A DNA stretch of 64,000 bases. Source: a virus (taxonomy: Duplodnaviria; Caudoviricetes). The stretch lies in the IMG/VR virus record IMGVR_UViG_3300032373_000001; one strand, 5' to 3'. Under the pieces are notes generated by a model, which was not told the origin of the DNA, made no database searches, and was given only the letters and a program-made list of their open reading frames with translations. Each line of letters begins with the position of its first letter. Positions within the stretch are counted from its first letter, which is position 1. Below are positions 43,048-52,410 of this stretch, one piece after another. Made by a program: the position numbers and the translations under genes.

Positions 43048-44211
43048 CTATTCGACTCCGAAGTCGTCCATGAAAGAAGCATCCTTGGCCTGTTCGCTGA
43101 GGTGCTTCTTTTTGCGGTATGCGTGCTGCTCTTGGGGCGAGCGATGCTTGGCCCGCCACTTCTGGTACTTGGCGAACTCCTCCTCCTGAGTGCCCGCTCC
43201 CGCCAGGTCTTCTCGGAGATACATGACGAGCGAGATGCGCTCGTAGTTCTCTTCGCCTTCCACTGCGGGCTCGATCGGGGTGTTGCCGTGGAAGTGGTGC
43301 GCGACATCCATCCCGACGAAGTCCCCCTGCCGGCAGTCGAAGGCCACCCGGAACTGGGGGAAGACTGTGTAGCCGCCCTTGTAGGTGTGCTCCCCAGCTT
43401 CCAGGACACTGAAGTTTTCCAGCCCCGCCTTGAAGTCCCCCGCGTCCTGGTGACAGGCGGTCTGGAAGTTCTTGTTGACGGTGATGGTCGAGTACACGGT
43501 GCCCGGAACAACCCACTCCCGCTTGTCGAGCTCGTGCTGCTCCACGAATTCCCGCTGGGTCTGGTAGCGGTCGGGGTGTAGCTCTTCGAAGAGCTCGGTG
43601 CACCGTCGGAGGAACGGCCACGCCTGCTTGAACTTGTCCCAGTTGTCGCGGGTGTATGCGGTCTTGCGGACGTAGGGGTTCCGGGCGGTCGGGGGGAAGA
43701 AGCCTGCAATTCCGCCCATGGTCATGTTGGCTTCGACTGTGTCGGAGATGAGCCCATCCTTGGTGACGTACTTGGCGCGAGTGCCGTCGCCCACAGGGAT
43801 GACACGTGCAACGTCTCGACCGAAGCGGGTGGGGTCCACCTTGCCTCCGGCCACCCCCCGGTTCTTGGAAGGGCGGGCAGCCCCCTTCAGCCCGATATAG
43901 GCCCCCTCACACTCTTCCGGAGTGAAGACCCCCTTGCGGAAGACCAGAAACAACCGCTCGGCCAACCCCTCTTCCTCGGTCTTCTCGTCGCCGAACATGT
44001 CGAACACGCTCTCTTGGTGCGGCGCGTAGACGTTGGTGTCGCCGTTGACCAGGACCTCGAAGGAGTCCACGTCGATGAACTCTGCCTTGAGCTTGGCGGT
44101 CTCCTCGTCTGTGAGGAAGCCCTCTCCCGTCAGTTCTACGCAGAGGACCCCGTCCTCTCGGGTCCACTCGTACCAGACCAGTCCGTTGCTCTCTTTCCGC
44201 TGTTTGTCCAC
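43048..44211 (-). CDS. TET/JBP-family 2-oxoglutarate/Fe(II) dioxygenase
   Basis: YSTITVNKNFQTACHQDAGD (HxD), FPQFRVAFDCRQGDFVGMD, HGNT (distal His), ERISLVMYLRE (2OG Arg). GTG at 44211 with AGGAGG. Confidence 0.85.
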   Translation of the reverse strand: MDKQRKESNGLVWYEWTREDGVLCVELTGEGFLTDEETAKLKAEFIDVDSFEVLVNGDTNVYAPHQESVFDMFGDEKTEEEGLAERLFLVFRKGVFTPEECEGAYIGLKGAARPSKNRGVAGGKVDPTRFGRDVARVIPVGDGTRAKYVTKDGLISDTVEANMTMGGIAGFFPPTARNPYVRKTAYTRDNWDKFKQAWPFLRRCTELFEELHPDRYQTQREFVEQHELDKREWVVPGTVYSTITVNKNFQTACHQDAGDFKAGLENFSVLEAGEHTYKGGYTVFPQFRVAFDCRQGDFVGMDVAHHFHGNTPIEPAVEGEENYERISLVMYLREDLAGAGTQEEEFAKYQKWRAKHRSPQEQHAYRKKKHLSEQAKDASFMDDFGVE

Positions 44212-44302
44212 CCAGCACCTCCTGTTCACTCGACTAAAAACGAAGCCGACCCCTCTACTTACCGTGAGAGGGGTCGGCAGGCCACAACCTTAATGTTCGA
44301 GG

Positions 44303-45325
44303 TTACCCGCCGAACATGTCGAAGGCGTCGTCGGGTCGGGGGGCGATTTCCACGGGCTTGCCTTGGATGCGTCGGAGGTGCGGGAAGATGTCCTTGGAGG
44401 AGACCCCAGCGATGTCCTCGATGTCGATCAGCTCTCGCAGCTGGTTGTGGCGCGCTGCCACAACCTTGCGCGGGTTCTTGTCGAAGTTGGTCCACTGGTA
44501 GAGCTGCTCGGTCTCGAACTCGTAAGGTTCGAACTCCGGGAATTTGAACGGGCCTTCCTCTCGGAGGAACAACTCCGGGGACTTCTGCTCAGCGCTCAAG
44601 GCATGCCTCAAGAAGGCGCGGCACCAGCGGATGGCGGAGAGCATCTCGTCCATGTTCAGGGTGCCAGGGAAATGGCGGAACTCGATGGTCTCGGTCTCTT
44701 CCCACATCTGGCGGAGGTTGATGCCGGCACGTGGGCTGAAGTACCACATGCGACCCTTCTCGGTCGCCGGTGCGTGCTCCTCGTAGAAGCCTTGGGTGGT
44801 CGTGGCTGCGAGCATCGCCGCAACTCGTTTCTTGGGCATCTTGTACTGGTGGGACTTGTGCCGCCTCTTTTCCCGCTTCCGTTCCCACTCATACACCTCG
44901 GGAGGCAGGCTGGGGTCCGTCTTGGGGATGCGTTCCACGATGCTGAAGGCGTCTTGCTGGTGCTGGTCGATGTACCGCAGCAACCTCTTGCAGCCCTCCA
45001 GGTCGTCCTTCAGCCCCGGAACCCGCACGTGGATGTGAAGGTTGGAGCGGTAGTTGACGATGGGTGCAGGACCCCCCTTCGGGAGGGCAGCGTTGATTCG
45101 AGCGATGTGCTCGACCTGCTGTTCCGGGGTGGAGGTCGGCCTCGTGTTGATCTCACCCCCGTACCGATACAGCTTGCCGACAGGGTCGTTGGCGATGCCC
45201 GTTGAAGAAACGCAGGTGTTGTCCTTGTCGTTCCACTGAGCGCCGTCGGGAAGCTCAGCGAAGCGGAAGCAGTTGCCGTACTCCAGCTCTGCACCGTAGG
45301 TGAAGCTGTCTACATCGTATTTCAT
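44303..45325 (-). CDS. Putative amidoligase (COOH-NH2 ligase, glutamine-synthetase-like fold)
   Basis: TYGAELEYG, GGEINTRPT, NLHIHV, TIEFRHFPGT. Coupled to the GATase gene. Confidence 0.75.
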   Translation of the reverse strand: MKYDVDSFTYGAELEYGNCFRFAELPDGAQWNDKDNTCVSSTGIANDPVGKLYRYGGEINTRPTSTPEQQVEHIARINAALPKGGPAPIVNYRSNLHIHVRVPGLKDDLEGCKRLLRYIDQHQQDAFSIVERIPKTDPSLPPEVYEWERKREKRRHKSHQYKMPKKRVAAMLAATTTQGFYEEHAPATEKGRMWYFSPRAGINLRQMWEETETIEFRHFPGTLNMDEMLSAIRWCRAFLRHALSAEQKSPELFLREEGPFKFPEFEPYEFETEQLYQWTNFDKNPRKVVAARHNQLRELIDIEDIAGVSSKDIFPHLRRIQGKPVEIAPRPDDAFDMFGG

Positions 45326-46032
45326 GGGGTCGGGGAAGCCTTGGGCTGGAGGTCCTGTTGGGACTGAGGAGAGCCGACGCTCAGCAGGCTGAGGACCCTG
45401 GCTCCGGGGGTGAGCTGCGTCTTGTAGTGCATCTTGAGCTGCATGGGGTCGTTCTCGACTCCTGACCTCAACGCGATGTCCCGCGTTGAAGTGATCAGTT
45501 GACCGTTGTTTACCTTGGTGAGGTAAAGGGGGCGCTTGCCGTTGCGGTAGGCGATCATCGTCCGGTTGGCGTGAAGCTCTACCGCCGCGATGCTGGAGTC
45601 CAGCCAATCCTGGAACGGGTTGCCTCGCTTCCGAAGGAGGAGTTCTGTGTCGTTCTTGGTCTCGCAGGCGACCCCGTAGAGACCCTCCCAGTTCTCGGGG
45701 AGCTCCTGGGAGATGACCCCGTTGTGGACCAGCGCGGTGTCCTCAGTAGAGAGCGGCTGGTTGTACTCCAGGTCGCTGGTCGAGTACCTGCAGTGGCCGA
45801 GGAGGTACAGGTTCCCGTCTTCGTTGAGGTACTGCGAGGGGTCCTGGAGGTGACGCTCAACGAAGACCTCAGCGGGAACAGGTTCCTTGATCGTGTGCAG
45901 GTTCCCCCCTTGGAGCCATGTCATGCCCGTGGCATGCTTGCCACGGATTTGGCTCTGAAGGAACACTTCTACCAGCAGGTCAAGCTCTGCCGGCTTGGGG
46001 GCCGCGAAGTATGCCCCGATTACTCCACACAT
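45322..46032 (-). CDS. Class II (Ntn) glutamine amidotransferase
   Basis: N-terminal MCGVIG, RGKHATG, GHCRYST, NQP, VHNGVI, NDTE. Confidence 0.85.
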   Translation of the reverse strand: MCGVIGAYFAAPKPAELDLLVEVFLQSQIRGKHATGMTWLQGGNLHTIKEPVPAEVFVERHLQDPSQYLNEDGNLYLLGHCRYSTSDLEYNQPLSTEDTALVHNGVISQELPENWEGLYGVACETKNDTELLLRKRGNPFQDWLDSSIAAVELHANRTMIAYRNGKRPLYLTKVNNGQLITSTRDIALRSGVENDPMQLKMHYKTQLTPGARVLSLLSVGSPQSQQDLQPKASPTP

Positions 46033-47510
46033 CACTCACCCCCAAAGAGGTCGAACACATCATCGCGGGTGTCGGCCTTGATCGTATCGCCTTTGAACAT
46101 CCACCCCATCCGGGCAAACTTCCCTGAGTCCAGGAAGGTGTAGCCTGCGGGATTGATGCCGGTGCGGTGCGTCAGCCGGTAGTCCAGCTGCTCAGTGCGG
46201 GACTGCCAGAGCACGTCCCAGTCGATCCCATGCCAGCCGTCGCCCTCGCACCGTTGAATCTCCCCCGCCTGCCGGTCCAGATAGTATCCGAGGTAGCGAC
46301 TGTGCTTCGGTCGCCAGATCTTCTTGAACGAGCAGAGGCACGTCTCCATGCTGAAGAAGTCGGCGTCCTTCTTCAGGCGGGGGAAGCGGGCGTGCACCTC
46401 TGCCAAGATGGAGGCCCCCTCCTCTTCCAGCCGCTGGTACTCTCCCGCAGTCAGCTTAGTGTCGACCTCGGACTCCCGCCCCAGTGCCCAGAGCAGTCCG
46501 TTCCGGTGAGAGCGGCTGCCGCTGTAGTCCTTCAACATGAGGGAGGTGGCTTCCACCGGAACACCTGCCGTGTGCTTCAGGTGCTGGAGGAAGAACCACG
46601 TAGAATAGCGACCAAACTTGTAGAGCCCGCTGAGCTGCCCCCACAGGTTCTCGAAGGTTTCTTCCTCGGTCTCCCCGTAGAACTGAGCGAAGCGGTCGTG
46701 CTGGAGCCCGTTGCCCACCCACTCAGCATAGCTGGCGTACATGGCCGGCAGGTGACCCTTGTTCCATTTGGTGTCGGTCTGGTAGCGGAGCCTGGAGTAG
46801 TTGGCATTGTTCCAGAGCGTCAGCCGGTCGTGCGTTGCCAGCTCGAAGTCGGGGAACTCGTTGATGATGATCCAGCTCGTCGGGAGGTAGTAGGTGTTCC
46901 CGTACAGCCAGCTCAGCCACAGTCTCTGTTCCGAGTTGTGCTCGTACCGCTCGTGGAGGTAGTTGGTCATCCACAGGGCCGGGTCACAGTCCCGGAATTG
47001 AAGGGACCATGCATACCACCGGATGAAGGCTTCCCTCCGGTTCTCCGTAAGCCTGTAGTCCCCTGGGGGAGGGGCATGGGTAGGCAGGCCGCATCGGAAC
47101 AGGCGCATGGCGGAGCGGATCTGGTCGACCACTCGCTTGTGGTCCTTGGTACCCTTGGAGTAGTTGGGGTCCGGAATCCGCGTCTCACCGATGAGGTCGC
47201 TGACCCGAACAGACTTCCCGAAGACCTCGTCGCCGAACTGCTCTCGCAGCCGACGCTCGTTGCCGTTGTCCATGTAGAAGATGACGTCGGCCCAGTCGAT
47301 GAGGTCTTGGCGGACGGCGGTGGACCGGATGCCCAGACCATCCAGGCCCCGGCTCCTCAAGGCTGTGCGCATCTTCTTCGTGGTCCGGACCCCGTCCTTG
47401 CCTTTGAGGGCAGCGGAGCGGATGTCCCAGTGAGGCTCCATTGCTTGGAGCATGATGTGCCCGGCCGGGGAACGGTTGATGTTCCCGTGGCACAAAAACA
47501 AGACGCGCAC
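46032..47510 (-). CDS. Fusion: LMW phosphotyrosine-phosphatase-like domain + alpha-glutamyl/putrescinyl-thymine pyrophosphorylase (clade-3-like amino acid:DNA transferase)
   Basis: N-terminal LFLCHGNINRS (CX5R), WADVIFYMD, IPDP. C-terminal RREAFIRWY, DCDP, WLYGNTY, RYQTDTKW, KFGRYSTWFFLQHL, ETCLCSFKK, YLGYYLDRQ. One uninterrupted ORF. Confidence 0.8.
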   Translation of the reverse strand: MRVLFLCHGNINRSPAGHIMLQAMEPHWDIRSAALKGKDGVRTTKKMRTALRSRGLDGLGIRSTAVRQDLIDWADVIFYMDNGNERRLREQFGDEVFGKSVRVSDLIGETRIPDPNYSKGTKDHKRVVDQIRSAMRLFRCGLPTHAPPPGDYRLTENRREAFIRWYAWSLQFRDCDPALWMTNYLHERYEHNSEQRLWLSWLYGNTYYLPTSWIIINEFPDFELATHDRLTLWNNANYSRLRYQTDTKWNKGHLPAMYASYAEWVGNGLQHDRFAQFYGETEEETFENLWGQLSGLYKFGRYSTWFFLQHLKHTAGVPVEATSLMLKDYSGSRSHRNGLLWALGRESEVDTKLTAGEYQRLEEEGASILAEVHARFPRLKKDADFFSMETCLCSFKKIWRPKHSRYLGYYLDRQAGEIQRCEGDGWHGIDWDVLWQSRTEQLDYRLTHRTGINPAGYTFLDSGKFARMGWMFKGDTIKADTRDDVFDLFGGE

Positions 47511-47519
47511 GGGCGCCTC

Positions 47520-48137
47520 CTACTCGAAGGAGTGGATGAAGTCCAGGATCTGCTGTGCCACCTCGGATGGGGTGACGCCCTCCACCGTGATGTTGAGCAG
47601 TCGGTTCTCTTCGTCCGTCGGATCGCCCCCGTCGCCGAACATGTCGAAGAGGGAGTTGTCCTGGGGCAGGAAGCGGTCAGCGAAGCGTCGGGCCTTGCTG
47701 ACGCGCCCCTTGAGCCAAGTGGGGTTTTGGTCGCTGCCCCGCTCCTTGCGGCGCGCATCCATCACTTCGTCGCTGGCCCCCAGGTGAGCGCAGAGCACCT
47801 TGACGCCTCGGTCTTCCAGGAACTTCTTCGCATTGGCGTGACTGAAGCGGTCGCCGTCGAACACCGTGTACTTGTAGGTGGCGTCGGGGAGGATCTCCTC
47901 CTCCCAGTGCTCCACGCAGGGGACCCAGCCATCGTTGGGGACCGTGTCTGCGCCGTCGAAGGTTCCGGTCCCGTAGTGGCCTGCGAACACGTAGGGGCCT
48001 CCATTCTGAAGGCACCACTTGATCTTCTTGGTCTCGTCGTGGGTGAAGTTGGTGTAGTCCTTCCCGAGGATGATACGGGCGGTGGTTGTTTTGCCGACGC
48101 CTGGAGGGCCGACGAGGAACAGCGCGATGTGGGCCAT
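47520..48137 (-). CDS. P-loop kinase of hypermodification loci (5-hydroxymethyluracil-DNA-kinase-like)
   Basis: GPPGVGKT, GHYGTGTFDGADT, FDGDRF, RRKERGSDQNPTWLKGR. Directly upstream of the aGPT gene. Confidence 0.8.
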   Translation of the reverse strand: MAHIALFLVGPPGVGKTTTARIILGKDYTNFTHDETKKIKWCLQNGGPYVFAGHYGTGTFDGADTVPNDGWVPCVEHWEEEILPDATYKYTVFDGDRFSHANAKKFLEDRGVKVLCAHLGASDEVMDARRKERGSDQNPTWLKGRVSKARRFADRFLPQDNSLFDMFGDGGDPTDEENRLLNITVEGVTPSEVAQQILDFIHSFE

Positions 48138-48140
48138 TTT

Positions 48141-48683
48141 CTATCCTTCCTGGGCGATCTTTACGAGCCAAGGATACAGGTTCTTGTGGTTGGGTTCGGC
48201 GTAGAGGAAGCCCCTCCCGCCTGCGTCGTGGAACTCTCGGGTGTTCCGGTCGTAGTCATCCACGAGGTAGCTCTCGGGGGTCGCGTAGAACTGCTTCTGG
48301 CGAGAGGTCGCTACGCAGTTGAACCTCCGCAGCGCTTTCAGGTCGATCAAGTCCCCGTAGTGTTTGCGGAGGAACTCTACCTTCCCGGCGTGAGCCGCCT
48401 CTCCCATGTCCCCATCGTAGGAGCCCAGCGAGGTGAGGATCTCCACGTTCCAGCCGTTCTCGTGAGCTGCCTCCATCAGGACCTTCCAGTCCTTCAGGTG
48501 GAGGGGTGCGGCTTCGCTGAAGAACTTCCTCTTGCCTACCGTCTTCCACGCCTTCACGTAGTGGGCGTGCTTTTCTCGGTCGGGGAGATGGCCGTAGGAG
48601 CCAGGCTCCCATCCGAGGAGCTGATCGCATCGTCCGACGAAGTCCACGAGGACCCCGTCCATGTCAAGGTACAAGGTCTTCAT
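48141..48683 (-). CDS. HAD-superfamily 5'(3')-deoxyribonucleotidase
   Basis: LYLDMDGVLVDF, ILTS, GK, LVDDY...N. Confidence 0.8.
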   Translation of the reverse strand: MKTLYLDMDGVLVDFVGRCDQLLGWEPGSYGHLPDREKHAHYVKAWKTVGKRKFFSEAAPLHLKDWKVLMEAAHENGWNVEILTSLGSYDGDMGEAAHAGKVEFLRKHYGDLIDLKALRRFNCVATSRQKQFYATPESYLVDDYDRNTREFHDAGGRGFLYAEPNHKNLYPWLVKIAQEG

Positions 48684-50560: not shown

Positions 50561-50836
50561 CTACCTCTGGGTGTTTTCGTCCGCGCGGAGGATGTCTTGC
50601 AAGTATTTCTTGTGGACTGCTGCCGCCTCCGCAGCAGCTTGCTCTTCCCGCTGCTCGGTGTATACCTGTAGTCCGTTTGGAGTCAGGGCAAGCCGCCCTT
50701 CACCAGGGGTGACCACCAGACCCTTCTTCATCAGGCGTTCGATTGCGCCTGCGTAGAGGTGGGCCTTGGGACCGCCGCGAGGAGCCTCGCCCCAGGCAGC
50801 GACCCAGCTGAGGATATGGTGCTCAGTCTCCCTCAC
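50561..50836 (-). CDS. Small winged-helix-like protein
   Basis: AIERLMKKGLVV...LALTPNG. Confidence 0.6.
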   Translation of the reverse strand: MRETEHHILSWVAAWGEAPRGGPKAHLYAGAIERLMKKGLVVTPGEGRLALTPNGLQVYTEQREEQAAAEAAAVHKKYLQDILRADENTQR

Positions 50837-52410
50837 TTGAGGCCCATACGCCTCAGGGCATCCTGGCGGCTGAAGAACCCATAGCCGTCGATCTTCTCAA
50901 TCAGCTGGCGGAGAGCTTCTCGTGCCTGAGCCTCGTACTCGAAGTTGGCACCGTGCGCGTTGGCCCGAAGCTCGATGATGTACACCGCATCGCGTAGCCC
51001 CGCTTGACCCGCCAGCTCGACCTGAGTCCCCATCGGCAGGCAGAGCATCGCCAGGCCCTTCAGGCCGTTGTTGTGGAACCAGAGGTAATGCTCGCGGCTC
51101 TTCTGCATCGCCTGAGTCAGCAGCGACTTCCCCCGCTCGCTCATACAGGGATAGCTGGGGTGGATGCGGAAGGAATCGCCCTTCCCCCACAGGATGCTCA
51201 TGACCCAAGGGAACGCCGTTCGGTGACGGTGCCAGTCACGAGCAACCGCGAGGCTACACCGGAAGGTGATGTCTACGTCCGCAAGGTGGTTGTAGTAGGG
51301 GTCCAGGTAGGACCGGGCACCGACCTCACGGTCGGGGACGCTGCCTGGGATGTGGTCCCGCTTGGCGTGGAGCTTGACTCGGACCTCGGACCCCGGAGTC
51401 CCCAAGAGCTTGAAGTCCCAGTTGTACTGGCTGGGACGAGCGGCTTCTCCGAAGCCGTCGCTCTGGTCGATGACGGCTTCTCGGAGGCCCATTCCCTTGA
51501 GTCCCGGCAGGGCCTGCTGGTACAGCTCGTGGGCGCGCTGCCAAGTGTCGAGGGACCCCGCCTCCTGGAGGAGTCTGGCGCGGTTGGCTCCCTCCTTGAT
51601 GATGCGGGACCGCTCGCGCAGGTCGCCGGTGTGGGCGCAGCCCGTAGCGAAGGTGCCGGGGATTGCCCATCGAGCACGGTCCAGGGCAGGGCGGAACGGC
51701 TCCTTGTCCTTGATGCCAAACTTGGCCCGGTTCTCGGCGTCCTTGAAGTGTTCCCTCCACCAGCTGACCTCCGCATCGAAGACCTCGAACCACAGTCCGT
51801 GGATCTCCTTCAGCTGGGGCCAGACCTCCCAAGTCTCGCGGGAGGTCTCATCGGCGATAAGCACCCCCGGATCTTGGGGGTTGAGCGGGTTGTGGACGCG
51901 CTTCACGTCCCGTTCCTGGCTCTTCAAGTAGTAGCACTCGCGGGCCATGGGCCAGTCCTTCCTGCGGACTGCCCTCGTCGAGAACTCCTGCCCCGAGCAC
52001 AGAGGGCTGTCGAACAGCTGGTATGCCGCGAGCCAGGAGATGCCCTCTGTGAAGCATGCCGGGGAGCCGGTCAGTTCCATGATCGAGCTGTGGCCGTAGT
52101 GCTGGACGAACTTGGCGAAGAACTCCCCCACCTTTGGGTGAATGGGATACTGCGTCAATGCATCTTCTGCCAGGCCCCGCCAATCGACGGTCTCTGGGGC
52201 GATCTCTTCGAGATTGTCCCTCAATGTTTCTTGGACGGCCTCGACCACCTCAGCGTAGCGGGCACGGATGCCTCCGACCGGCATGCGGGAAGACATCGCC
52301 GCAAACATGGCTCGAACTTCGGGTGTGAGACGGTGGTCCAGCCAGTAGAAGCCTTCGCCCATGGGGTGCTGCGAAGCGGACCGGCTTGCGTGGAGGTATT
52401 TGAACGTCAT
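50833..52410 (-). CDS. thyX: FAD-dependent thymidylate synthase, tandem-domain type
   Basis: YGHSSIMEL, QEFSTRAV, LDRARWAIP, SLAVARDWHRHR, LPMG...YIIELR. Confidence 0.8.
   Translation of the reverse strand: MTFKYLHASRSASQHPMGEGFYWLDHRLTPEVRAMFAAMSSRMPVGGIRARYAEVVEAVQETLRDNLEEIAPETVDWRGLAEDALTQYPIHPKVGEFFAKFVQHYGHSSIMELTGSPACFTEGISWLAAYQLFDSPLCSGQEFSTRAVRRKDWPMARECYYLKSQERDVKRVHNPLNPQDPGVLIADETSRETWEVWPQLKEIHGLWFEVFDAEVSWWREHFKDAENRAKFGIKDKEPFRPALDRARWAIPGTFATGCAHTGDLRERSRIIKEGANRARLLQEAGSLDTWQRAHELYQQALPGLKGMGLREAVIDQSDGFGEAARPSQYNWDFKLLGTPGSEVRVKLHAKRDHIPGSVPDREVGARSYLDPYYNHLADVDITFRCSLAVARDWHRHRTAFPWVMSILWGKGDSFRIHPSYPCMSERGKSLLTQAMQKSREHYLWFHNNGLKGLAMLCLPMGTQVELAGQAGLRDAVYIIELRANAHGANFEYEAQAREALRQLIEKIDGYGFFSRQDALRRMGLK

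What the first reader, a model, noticed from the sequence alone, without database searches (positions are those of the whole stretch)
46032..47510. LMW phosphatase fused to an amino acid:DNA transferase
Seen: one ORF joins an about 150-aa CX5R domain (CHGNINRS, general acid in IPDP; Asn where LMW-PTPs usually have a second Cys) to an aGPT-pyrophosphorylase domain. Established: aGPT enzymes consume phosphorylated hmU in DNA, and LMW-PTP folds hydrolyse phosphomonoesters through a phospho-Cys. Inference: the phosphatase may trim a pyrophosphoryl to a phosphoryl intermediate, proofread unreacted phospho-hmU back to hmU (setting the fraction of modified bases), or dephosphorylate a donor. I do not know of this fusion in the characterised hypermodification pathways.
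Basis: partly seen in the sequence, partly recalled or inferred. Interest (0 to 1): 0.75.

Follow-up and report, generated by a model that had tools for sequence, protein, structure and literature searches.

The report
Phosphatase fused to phage DNA-base transferase
A huge uncultured phage really does fuse a small cysteine phosphatase to the enzyme that attaches amino acids to its DNA. The same phosphatase is a separate gene, almost always next to an amide-forming ligase, in many other uncultured phages, which points to an undescribed phosphate-removal step in making modified DNA bases.

Summary
It joins a complete LMW-PTP domain (P-loop C7-HGNIN-R13-S14, acid D114 in IPDP) through an 11-residue proline-rich linker to a complete amino acid:DNA transferase (ADDT).

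Contigs from three microbial-mat runs cover the junction with no differences. A 55%-identical protein from another sample has the same architecture. Among 1.84 billion representative proteins only that one spans both domains, so the fusion is real and very rare.

It is the fused form of a widespread, apparently undescribed arrangement. A phage-specific LMW-PTP subfamily (CHGN[IV]NRS invariant in 88 of 88 sequences that cover the motif) sits in thymidine hypermodification clusters of two unrelated types.

Its strict partner is one Amidoligase_2 subfamily, not the kinase or ADDT: 71 of 73 loci one way, 74 of 76 the other. Sister phages run near-identical kinase and ADDT without it. Two complete phage genomes carry the pair with no detectable ADDT.

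No chemistry is shown.

The scan had noted TET/JBP cassettes on other DNA, but not this phosphatase.

The parts
46032..47510 (-). Fused LMW-PTP::ADDT gene (492 aa, 57.6 kDa, GTG start)
   Evidence: ORF, translation, Pfam, mass. Contigs of three runs are identical across it.
47094..47510 (-). N-terminal LMW-PTP domain (residues 1-139). Basic: pI 10.3, net charge +9.
   Evidence: Pfam LMWPc 51.9 bits. The clade profile hits solved LMW-PTPs at E 1e-22 over their full length. Foldseek TM 0.65-0.78 by target to Wzb, YwlE, YfkJ and TT1001. pI.
47469..47492 (-). Phosphate-binding loop C7-H-G-N-I-N-R13-S14 (nucleophile Cys7, Arg13)
   Evidence: C, H, G, N, N, R and S are invariant in 88 of 88 clade members that cover the motif.
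47166..47171 (-). D114-P115, the general-acid position of LMW-PTPs
   Evidence: D and P are invariant in the clade and align with the DP of solved LMW-PTPs.
47061..47093 (-). Proline-rich inter-domain linker (residues 140-150)
   Evidence: The alignment with split homologues shows it is extra sequence between two complete proteins. P0002 has a similar PPSPPPHG linker. The model has no secondary structure at residues 140-154 and pLDDT about 61.
46077..47060 (-). C-terminal amino acid:DNA transferase (ADDT/AADT, formerly aGPT-Pplase2) domain, residues 151-478, all-helical
   Evidence: Pfam ADDT 83.1 bits. 64-70% identical to hundreds of stand-alone ~339-aa ADDTs. Model pLDDT 96-98. The family's invariant residues are kept.
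46035..46076 (-). Disordered C-terminal tail ending FDLFGGE
   Evidence: pLDDT below 50 at residues 482-492. Similar tails end the ADDTs of L088 and L001. Similar tails also end the amidoligases of the window, L088 and L001.
47520..48137 (-). P-loop kinase (Ploopntkinase3-like), presumed 5-hmU DNA kinase. Its stop overlaps the Shine-Dalgarno of the fused gene.
   Evidence: Pfam E 2e-05, 24.6 bits, below the 27-bit cut-off. Same position as kinases in L001 and L088. Sequence.
45322..46032 (-). Class II (Ntn) glutamine amidotransferase. Its true start is the ATG at 46032 (MCGVIG), which shares one base with the TGA of the fused gene.
   Evidence: Pfam GATase_6/7. Sequence.
44303..45325 (-). Amidoligase_2 of the subfamily that is paired with this phosphatase in other phages
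   Evidence: Pfam 23.5 bits, cut-off 22. 63% identical to the L002 ligase, with 72 invariant columns. Co-occurrence.
43048..44229 (-). Tet_JBP 2OG/Fe dioxygenase, presumed thymine-to-5hmU oxidase on DNA
   Evidence: Pfam 71.8 bits. This cluster type is described in PMC8989533 and PMC13229309.

Best explanation
The ORF is a genuine bifunctional enzyme of a post-replicative thymine hypermodification pathway.

Shown by sequence:
- The C-domain is a full ADDT.
- The N-domain is a full LMW-PTP-fold domain with nucleophile Cys7, Arg13/Ser14 and Asp114 intact.
- It belongs to a phage-only subfamily marked by CHGN[IV]NRS...MDxxN...IPDP.
- The fusion arose once, from neighbouring genes in a kinase-LMWPc-ADDT-GATase-amidoligase operon.

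Inferred pathway: Tet_JBP makes 5-hmU in DNA. The kinase phosphorylates it. ADDT, possibly helped by the GATase, replaces the phosphate with an amino acid or amine.

Inferred role of the phosphatase: it works with the cluster's Amidoligase_2, not with the kinase. Most likely the ATP-dependent ligase joins a phosphorylated co-substrate to the group already on the base, and the phosphatase then hydrolyses that phosphomonoester through a phospho-Cys7 intermediate. This two-step logic is proven for Campylobacter jejuni Cj1438C with Cj1435, acting on a polymer-bound carboxylate.

Fusing it to ADDT simply keeps the last-step enzyme on the DNA with the rest of the pathway, as other ADDT fusions do.
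For: The fusion is real.

A single origin: window and L001 ADDTs are sisters (96/91), and the split L088, with the same gene order, lies next to them.

The domain looks catalytically competent and is an LMW-PTP proper:
- C, R, S, D and P are invariant in the clade.
- The clade profile hits LMW-PTPs at 1e-22, against ArsC at about 3e-06 over partial length.
- The fold matches.

Pathway membership:
- Every sampled context of the subfamily lies in hypermodification clusters. Type A has Tet_JBP, GATase and kinase3.
- Type B has a ThyA-like gene, HMUDK and DAO, and includes phage Simon PQ683277.
- ADDT also fuses to other pathway enzymes: GATase, two kinase families, a PLP enzyme and Tet_JBP.

Coupling to the ligase:
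- The amidoligase lies immediately upstream of the LMWPc in 71 of 73 IMG/VR loci found through the LMWPc.
- 74 of 76 assessable loci found through the ligase carry the LMWPc.
- The pairing holds across both cluster types and down to about 30-40% identity.
- Loci without the LMWPc have a different ligase paralogue or none.

Independence from the kinase/ADDT core:
- 76 of the 80 closest ADDT loci lack the LMWPc.
- They nest with LMWPc-bearing ones in one starred clade.
- Their kinases are 74-87% identical to the reference kinase.
- G002 and G003, complete genomes with terminal repeats, carry the pair with no detectable ADDT or either kinase family.

Precedent: PMC11800397.
Against: - No phosphorylated co-substrate, and no gene for making one, is identified in the window.
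- LMW-PTPs classically prefer aryl phosphates (my own knowledge), so an alkyl phosphomonoester would be unusual for the fold.
- In the window, L001 and L088 the phosphatase sits beside the kinase and ADDT, with the ligase one or two genes away.
- In type B clusters it abuts the kinase. This also fits a phospho-hmU substrate.
- Many of the counted loci are close relatives, and the two scans share contigs, so the independent sample is smaller than the raw counts suggest.
- The Amidoligase_2 match is weak in Pfam (23.5 bits against a cut-off of 22) and the family has no characterised member that I know of.
- Absence of ADDT and kinase in G002/G003 rests on profile searches. Only PF18724 had a positive control.
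Confidence: 0.4

Rival explanations
1. The phosphatase acts on the activated base itself. It hydrolyses 5-phosphomethyl-U (or trims 5-pyrophosphomethyl-U) that the kinase made and ADDT did not use, resetting it to 5-hmU and setting the modified fraction.
For: - The domain is fused to the enzyme that consumes phospho-hmU.
- It is always near a kinase: directly after the kinase in the window, L001 and L088, and directly before HMUDK in type B clusters.
- It occurs with two unrelated kinase families.
- The domain is basic, pI 10.3, which fits DNA contact.
Against: - It does not explain the near-obligate pairing with one amidoligase subfamily.
- Sister phages with near-identical kinase and ADDT lack it.
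- M6, ViI and mycobacteriophage clusters lack it.
- The pair occurs in two complete genomes with no detectable ADDT or either kinase family.
- A kinase and a phosphatase acting on one substrate would form a futile cycle that competes with the fused transferase.
Confidence: 0.25
2. The domain is a protein or intermediate phosphatase with a control role. It might dephosphorylate a phage or host protein, for example the kinase or a host defence kinase target. Or it might hydrolyse a mis-formed acyl-phosphate of the ligase, as an editing step.
For: - The closest solved relatives are protein Tyr and Arg phosphatases.
- P-loop kinase and LMW-PTP gene pairs are common in bacteria, e.g. Wzc/Wzb (my own knowledge).
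- One homologue, P0338, is fused to an unrelated 190-aa domain next to the large terminase gene.
- The pair can exist without ADDT.
Against: - About 95% of occurrences are embedded inside base-modification operons, translationally coupled to the ligase, ADDT or kinase.
- Fusion to ADDT argues for a role on the same substrate.
- No protein target is suggested by any data.
Confidence: 0.15
3. The N-domain no longer catalyses anything. It serves as a phosphate- or DNA-binding module that positions ADDT on phospho-hmU.
For: - The domain is basic.
- The second P-loop Cys is replaced by Asn.
- Model confidence for this domain is modest, pLDDT 53-80.
Against: - Cys7, Arg13, Ser14 and Asp114 are invariant across 88 sequences down to about 27% identity, as expected under selection for catalysis.
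- The Asn is itself invariant, so it is a subfamily feature and not decay.
- Most homologues are free-standing proteins, not tethers.
Confidence: 0.05
4. The fusion is an assembly or sequencing artefact: a lost stop codon or a frameshift between two overlapping genes.
For: In split relatives the two genes overlap by 17-20 nt in different frames, so a single indel could in principle join them.
Against: - Three runs' contigs agree base for base across the junction.
- A 55%-identical homologue from another sample is fused in the same way.
- The junction holds an 11-residue Pro-rich linker that split forms lack, not an overlap read-through.
Confidence: 0.02

Closest known systems
Thymidine hypermodification pathways of phages M6 and ViI (5-HMUDK kinase + amino acid:DNA transferase; Lee et al., NAR 2022, PMC8989533)
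   Same: The same core logic and the same transferase family (PF18724): 5-hmU in DNA, a kinase, then displacement of the phosphate by an amino acid. That paper also notes metavirome clusters with TET_JBP, amidoligase and glutaminotransferase domains, and multi-domain fusions.
   Different: No phosphatase is part of those pathways or mentioned in the paper's cluster survey. tblastn with the LMWPc domain found no M6, ViI or mycobacteriophage record. Here the 5-hmU source is a Tet_JBP dioxygenase, not a dUMP hydroxymethylase.
Phage T-dioxygenase (5mYOX clade C1) clusters (PNAS 2026, PMC13229309)
   Same: Tet_JBP-type thymine oxidase linked to GATase, P-loop kinase and AADT genes.
   Different: That paper mentions neither a phosphatase nor an amidoligase. 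I did not check for a ParB partner in the window.
Low-molecular-weight protein tyrosine/arginine phosphatases (Wzb, YwlE, YfkJ, Entamoeba LMW-PTP; Pfam PF01451)
   Same: Same fold, an N-terminal CX5R(S) loop and a DP general acid.
   Different: The P-loop reads C-H-G-N-[IV]-N-R-S, with invariant His and Asn where cellular enzymes have other residues and usually a second Cys. It is phage-only and sits in DNA-modification operons. The substrate is unknown and probably not a protein.
Campylobacter jejuni capsule amidation: Cj1438 C-domain (ATP-dependent amidoligase using serinol-phosphate or ethanolamine-phosphate) followed by Cj1435 phosphatase (PMC11800397)
   Same: A ligase plus a phosphatase acting in turn on a polymer-bound carboxylate. 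This is the functional analogy behind the favoured mechanism.
   Different: The protein families are unrelated: Cj1435 is a HAD phosphatase and Cj1438C is, from my own knowledge, an ATP-grasp enzyme. The polymer is a polysaccharide, not DNA. The analogy is inference only.
Other multi-domain ADDT proteins in metagenomes
   Same: ADDT is repeatedly fused to its pathway partners: GATase-ADDT, HMUD2 kinase...ADDT, PLP enzyme-ADDT, ADDT-Ploopntkinase3 and Tet_JBP-ADDT. Kinase and PLP fusions are reported in PMC8989533.
   Different: Among the 150 best of 942 hits in 1.84 billion representatives, LMWPc-ADDT is seen only in P0002, besides the window's own protein.

Membership tests
LMW-PTP (Pfam PF01451 LMWPc) | Profile match above the curated threshold over the whole domain | tested here: met
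   51.9 bits against a cut-off of 23.2, residues 3-136 on profile positions 1-141 of 144. The clade profile hits solved LMW-PTPs at E 1e-22.
LMW-PTP (Pfam PF01451 LMWPc) | N-terminal C-X5-R-(S/T) phosphate-binding loop after strand 1 | tested here: met
   C7...R13-S14, invariant in 88 of 88 sequences that cover it.
LMW-PTP (Pfam PF01451 LMWPc) | Asp-Pro general acid near the C-terminus | tested here: met
   D114-P115, invariant in the clade, aligned with the DP of 3jvi.
LMW-PTP (Pfam PF01451 LMWPc) | Four-stranded alpha/beta fold of LMW-PTPs | tested here: met
   Foldseek against the PDB: the 50 listed hits are all LMW-PTPs, TM by target 0.64-0.78, although the domain's pLDDT is only 53-80.
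LMW-PTP (Pfam PF01451 LMWPc) | Second P-loop cysteine (CxGNxCRS). Common but not essential. | tested here: not met
   Asn12 in its place, invariant in the phage subfamily.
LMW-PTP (Pfam PF01451 LMWPc) | Phosphomonoesterase activity through a phospho-Cys intermediate | not testable with these tools
   Needs an enzyme assay (pNPP, phospho-substrates, Cys7-to-Ser mutant).
LMW-PTP-type arsenate reductase (ArsC, S. aureus pI258 / B. subtilis type) | Two further cysteines (Cys82/Cys89 equivalents) forming the redox relay | tested here: not met
   The domain has only Cys7. Cys140 lies in the linker and is not conserved. ArsC structures match the clade profile only partially, at best about E 3e-06.
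Amino acid:DNA transferase (ADDT/AADT, PF18724; formerly aGPT-Pplase2) | Profile match above threshold and retention of the family's invariant residues | tested here: met
   83.1 bits against a cut-off of 26.2. The window's domain is one of the 41 sequences that share the invariant columns P71, E241, C245, Y258, G260, Y262 and D264, in P0117 numbering.
Amino acid:DNA transferase (ADDT/AADT, PF18724; formerly aGPT-Pplase2) | Genomic linkage to a 5-hmU source and a 5-hmU DNA kinase | tested here: met
   Tet_JBP at 43048-44229 (71.8 bits). A P-loop kinase at 47520-48137 (Ploopntkinase3 at 24.6 bits, just under the 27-bit cut-off), in the same position as kinases of related clusters.
Amino acid:DNA transferase (ADDT/AADT, PF18724; formerly aGPT-Pplase2) | Transfer of an amino acid onto 5-phosphomethyl-dU in DNA | not testable with these tools
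   Needs in vitro reconstitution as in PMC8989533.
Amidoligase-phosphatase module (proposed here, not a published family) | An LMWPc with the CHGN[IV]NRS loop next to an Amidoligase_2 of the L002 type | tested here: met
   The window has both, one gene apart (44303-45325 and 47094-47510). Adjacency holds in 71 of 73 and 74 of 76 loci elsewhere.

The most novel reading that the evidence does not exclude
The amidoligase-LMW-PTP pair is an undescribed, mobile two-enzyme tailoring module for DNA bases. The ligase adds a phosphorylated building block to an amino-acid or aminomethyl group on thymine. A dedicated cysteine phosphatase, the first LMW-PTP-fold enzyme with a nucleic-acid-borne substrate, then removes the phosphate. 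The result would be a new class of hypermodified thymidine, present in well over a hundred uncultured phage contigs and in this huge phage. A variant of the same reading is that the phosphatase is a true DNA 5-phosphomethyluracil phosphatase, which would make base phosphorylation reversible.
Probability: 0.35. Interest if true: 0.75.

Novelty: new variant of a known kind. Interest (0 to 1): 0.58.

Why it matters
Phage thymidine hypermodifications protect DNA from restriction enzymes. They are also a source of new DNA chemistry and enzymes.

The published pathways consist of a kinase, a transferase and tailoring enzymes. None includes a phosphatase, and the amidoligases seen in metavirome clusters have no assigned reaction.

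The fusion marks the phosphatase as a pathway member, and the comparative data tie it to the amidoligase. This gives a concrete and cheap experiment: five proteins, ATP, glutamine and candidate co-substrates, followed by LC-MS. That experiment could reveal a new modified base and a new substrate class for the LMW-PTP fold.

A sequenced record, phage Simon (PQ683277), carries the split module. If that phage is available in culture, its virion DNA could be analysed directly.

Tried and rejected
- Complex prediction on the split pair (ADDT alignment A3 with LMWPc alignment A2) gave no answer, score 0.00. It is not evidence either way.
- Megablast of 6 kb around the gene against 50,697 phage records found no match.
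- No whole genome is held for the window, so I could not look for a second LMWPc or ADDT copy elsewhere in the phage.
- The ADDT domain has no sequence match in the PDB, and the 50 Foldseek matches listed are all to the LMW-PTP domain. Its fold therefore stayed unexplained.
- The 178-192-aa gene that takes the LMWPc's place before ADDT in most T4-like relatives has no Pfam hit. The Atlas gave only viral hypothetical proteins and weak HNH-like structural neighbours. I could not show that it is an analogous phosphatase.
- The arsenate-reductase reading was rejected: there are no relay cysteines and only a weak partial ArsC match.
- Iyer et al. 2013 (NAR), the paper that, as I recall, defined the aGPT-Pplase families, could not be opened. 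I cannot exclude that it mentions a phosphatase neighbour.
- From memory, the RNA polymerase CTD phosphatase Ssu72 also has Asn at the second-Cys position. Ssu72 did not appear among the 60 profile hits shown, of 64, so this remains an untested recollection.
- L141 and L143 are LMWPc loci without the ligase. Their neighbours (helicase, methyltransferase, class II tRNA-synthetase-like gene) gave no clear reading.
- In G002 and G003, searches for TGT, ThyA, Tet_JBP and aGPT-Pplase3 found nothing. What the ligase-phosphatase pair acts on there is unknown.
Full report
**The object.** The window has a 492-codon ORF at 46032-47510 on the minus strand, with a GTG start. The plus-strand reading of these coordinates contains a stop. 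The product (P0001) has two Pfam domains above threshold. LMWPc covers residues 3-136 (51.9 bits, cut-off 23.2). ADDT, the amino acid:DNA transferase formerly called aGPT-Pplase2, covers residues 182-401 (83.1 bits, cut-off 26.2). PHROGs also splits the protein into two unrelated families at residue ~150.

- C7-H-G-N-I-N12-R13-S14.
- I112-P-D114-P115.
- Asn12 stands where a solved LMW-PTP has Cys (alignment with 3jvi).

A GGAGG sits 6 nt before the GTG and overlaps the stop of the upstream kinase gene. The TGA stop shares a base with the ATG of the next gene. That gene begins MCGVIG, the usual N-terminus of a class II amidotransferase. The gene is therefore one link in a tightly coupled operon.

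**Is the fusion real?** Contigs assembled independently from three microbial-mat runs cover 46821-47700 or more with no substitution and no indel. Two of the runs may be the source of this DNA, and the third is not flagged as such. These are contigs, not raw reads.

P0002 is a 487-aa protein from an unrelated run, 55% identical, with the same two domains. An alignment with split homologues shows three parts. First comes the whole phosphatase up to its last helix. Then comes an 11-residue proline-rich linker (residues 140-150), and P0002 has a similar one. Then the transferase starts at what is residue 2 of stand-alone proteins.

This is not a read-through of the 17-20-nt out-of-frame overlap seen in split relatives. 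In an ADDT tree the two fused proteins are sisters (96/91). The split L088, with the same gene order (kinase, LMWPc, ADDT, GATase, amidoligase), lies next to them. The simplest reading is one fusion event that has since been kept while the proteins diverged to 55% identity.

**How rare is it?**
- None of 383 matching phage records in GenBank covers 80% or more of the protein.
- Among the 120 best of 1305 hits in a 5.8-billion-protein collection, only P0001 and P0002 have both domains.
- An exhaustive HMMER pass over 1.84 billion representatives gave 942 hits. Of the 150 listed, only P0002 spans both domains.

ADDT is otherwise a frequent fusion partner. It is found as GATase-ADDT, HMUD2 kinase...ADDT, PLP enzyme-ADDT, ADDT-Ploopntkinase3 and Tet_JBP-ADDT, and one ADDT carries an intein. 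Fusions of pathway enzymes are reported in PMC8989533. The LMWPc fusion follows that pattern with a partner not reported there.

**Context in the window.** All genes are on the minus strand. In order of transcription:
- a P-loop kinase (47520-48137);
- the fused gene;
- a class II GATase (45322-46032);
- an Amidoligase_2 (44303-45325);
- a Tet_JBP dioxygenase (43048-44229).

This is the TET_JBP type of thymidine hypermodification cluster noted in PMC8989533 and PMC13229309. Earlier notes of this scan describe the genome as a ~411-kb uncultured phage from microbial mats. The mat origin agrees.

**The phosphatase is a phage subfamily.** The domain was 37% identical to a gene in the unannotated record of phage Simon. 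A search with a stand-alone homologue (P0121) returned 85 stand-alone proteins of 102-182 aa.

Across 89 sequences the residues C, H, G, N, N, R and S of the loop are invariant in all 88 that cover it. So are the D and P of IPDP, an MDxxN motif and several basic residues. This holds for members only ~27-33% identical to P0121.

The clade profile matches solved LMW-PTPs over their full length at E 1e-22. It matches ArsC arsenate reductases only partially, at about 3e-06. The domain has no relay cysteines. An AlphaFold model (mean pLDDT 85, pTM 0.76) gives the ADDT domain 96-98 and the phosphatase domain 53-80. All 50 listed Foldseek PDB matches are to LMW-PTPs, with TM 0.64-0.78 by target. I read this as a catalytically competent LMW-PTP and not a decayed or redox variant.

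**What it travels with.** Every sampled context lies in a hypermodification cluster, of two unrelated types.
- Type A, in T4-like and other phages: Tet_JBP, GATase, amidoligase, LMWPc, ADDT and a P-loop kinase.
- Type B, M6-like and including phage Simon: ADDT, a DAO flavoenzyme, a 305-317-aa gene, LMWPc, HMUDK, a ThyA-like gene and PolA.

The decisive result came from tblastn of all cassette proteins against all loci. The phosphatase coincides one-to-one with one amidoligase subfamily, and the "unknown" 305-317-aa gene of type B clusters is that ligase.

Two IMG/VR scans confirmed this:
- Of 73 loci found through the phosphatase motif, 71 have the ligase immediately upstream, mostly overlapping by 0-33 nt.
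- Of 76 assessable loci found through a ligase profile, down to 37% identity, 74 have the phosphatase just downstream.

The two sets share contigs and include many close relatives, so the independent sample is smaller than these counts.

By contrast, 76 of the 80 ADDT loci closest to the window's lack the phosphatase. Some of them carry a different ligase paralogue with a GNAT and an unknown gene, and others have no ligase. Their ADDTs interleave with phosphatase-bearing ones inside one starred clade. Their kinases are 74-87% identical to the reference kinase.

Two complete phage genomes with terminal repeats (G002, 111 kb; G003, 109 kb) carry the ligase-phosphatase pair. Neither has a detectable ADDT, by profile or by sequence, nor HMUDK_hel nor Ploopntkinase3. 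The ADDT profile did find its target in three sister records in the same search.

**Mechanism.** Three things are shown: two intact domains, operon membership and the conserved pairing. The rest is inferred.

Following published chemistry (PMC8989533), Tet_JBP would make 5-hmU in DNA. The kinase would phosphorylate it. ADDT would then displace the phosphate with an amino acid or amine. The recurrent GATase-ADDT fusions hint that the GATase serves ADDT directly.

They predict linkage to the kinase/ADDT core regardless of tailoring enzymes. What is observed is the opposite, together with an almost obligate link to one ligase.

I therefore favour a role in the ligase step. The ligase would join a phosphorylated co-substrate to the group on the base, and the phosphatase would then remove the phosphate. 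This logic is proven for a polymer-bound carboxylate in C. jejuni (PMC11800397). There the Cj1438 C-domain uses serinol-phosphate or ethanolamine-phosphate, and Cj1435 then hydrolyses the phosphate.

The weak points are these:
- No phosphorylated co-substrate or gene for making one was found.
- LMW-PTPs usually prefer aryl phosphates (my own knowledge).
- The phosphatase also always lies near a kinase.

I give the ligase-coupled reading 0.40, the phospho-hmU reading 0.25, a regulatory or editing role 0.15, a non-catalytic module 0.05 and an artefact 0.02. The remainder is something not considered here.

**Novelty.** In the searchable library, no paper links a phosphatase to aGPT-Pplase/AADT clusters. 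The main pathway paper uses the word "phosphatase" once, for sample preparation. The 2026 T-dioxygenase paper mentions neither a phosphatase nor an amidoligase. Iyer et al. 2013 could not be read.

I class the finding as a new variant of a known kind of system. It combines a very rare fused architecture with a widespread ligase-phosphatase module that appears to be undescribed.

Earlier notes of this scan had flagged TET/JBP cassettes on other DNA. They did not flag this phosphatase or its pairing.

Noticed in passing
window 46035-46076 (-) and 44303-44335 (-); L088 and L001 homologues: The fused protein ends in ...FDLFGGE and the amidoligase in ...FDMFGG. The ADDTs and amidoligases of L088 and L001 end in similar [FL]xMF[GS] tails. 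T4-like relatives end their ADDTs in GLEEFL-type tails instead. This looks like a lineage-specific docking peptide, possibly for the sliding clamp. The tail is disordered in the model.
   Followed up: partly
window 46030-46035 (-): The GATase ORF listed from GTG 46035 more likely starts at the ATG at 46032, giving the canonical Ntn N-terminus MCGVIG. The ATG shares one base with the TGA of the fused gene.
   Followed up: yes
P0215, P0235, P0240, P0254, P0260, P0209, P0275, P0332 (metagenomic proteins): ADDT is a fusion hub: GATase-ADDT (three examples), HMUD2 kinase...ADDT (1278 aa), PLP enzyme-ADDT, ADDT-Ploopntkinase3 and Tet_JBP-ADDT. One ADDT is interrupted by an intein with an HNH endonuclease. 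The recurrent GATase-ADDT fusion suggests that the amidotransferase feeds ADDT directly.
   Followed up: partly
L093 430-1443 (protein P0338): A CHGNINRS phosphatase is fused to an unrelated ~190-aa C-terminal domain with no Pfam match, two genes upstream of a large terminase gene. The contig ends just upstream, so its wider context is unknown.
   Followed up: partly
L218 (record G002, 111 kb) and L223 (record G003, 109 kb): Two complete phage genomes with terminal repeats carry the amidoligase-phosphatase pair. None of the following was detected: ADDT, aGPT-Pplase3, HMUDK_hel, Ploopntkinase3, Tet_JBP, ThyA or TGT. Neighbours include an RlaP-like nucleotidyltransferase, a radical-SAM/Fer4_12 protein and a GIY-YIG endonuclease. 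What the pair modifies there is open.
   Followed up: partly
L085 6944-8001, L086 6818-8001 and similar loci: In many T4-like relatives the amidoligase-phosphatase slot before ADDT holds a different amidoligase-like paralogue, a GNAT acetyltransferase and a 178-192-aa gene of unknown function. A third variant has no ligase at all. These are modular swaps of tailoring genes around a constant Tet_JBP/GATase/ADDT/kinase core.
   Followed up: partly
L089 (phage Simon, PQ683277.1, 6588-23004): An unannotated 60.9-kb phage record holds a complete type B cluster: SF1 helicase, ADDT, DAO flavoenzyme, amidoligase, LMW-PTP, 5-hmdU DNA kinase, ThyA-like gene and PolA. It is a possible culturable model for the module.
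   Followed up: yes
window 50833-52410 (-): A 525-aa ORF has a ThyX (Thy1) match only in residues 380-505. The N-terminal ~380 residues have no family match.
   Followed up: no
window 48141-48683 (-): The gene just upstream of the kinase matches a PHROG annotated as 5'-3' deoxyribonucleotidase (E 2e-24). It may belong to nucleotide-pool control for the same pathway.
   Followed up: no
L141 6001-6459 and L143 3781-4239: These are the only two phosphatase loci without the ligase. L141 sits between a T5orf172/MUG113 gene and a methyltransferase. L143 sits near a class II tRNA-synthetase-like (AsnA-like?) 280-aa gene.
   Followed up: partly
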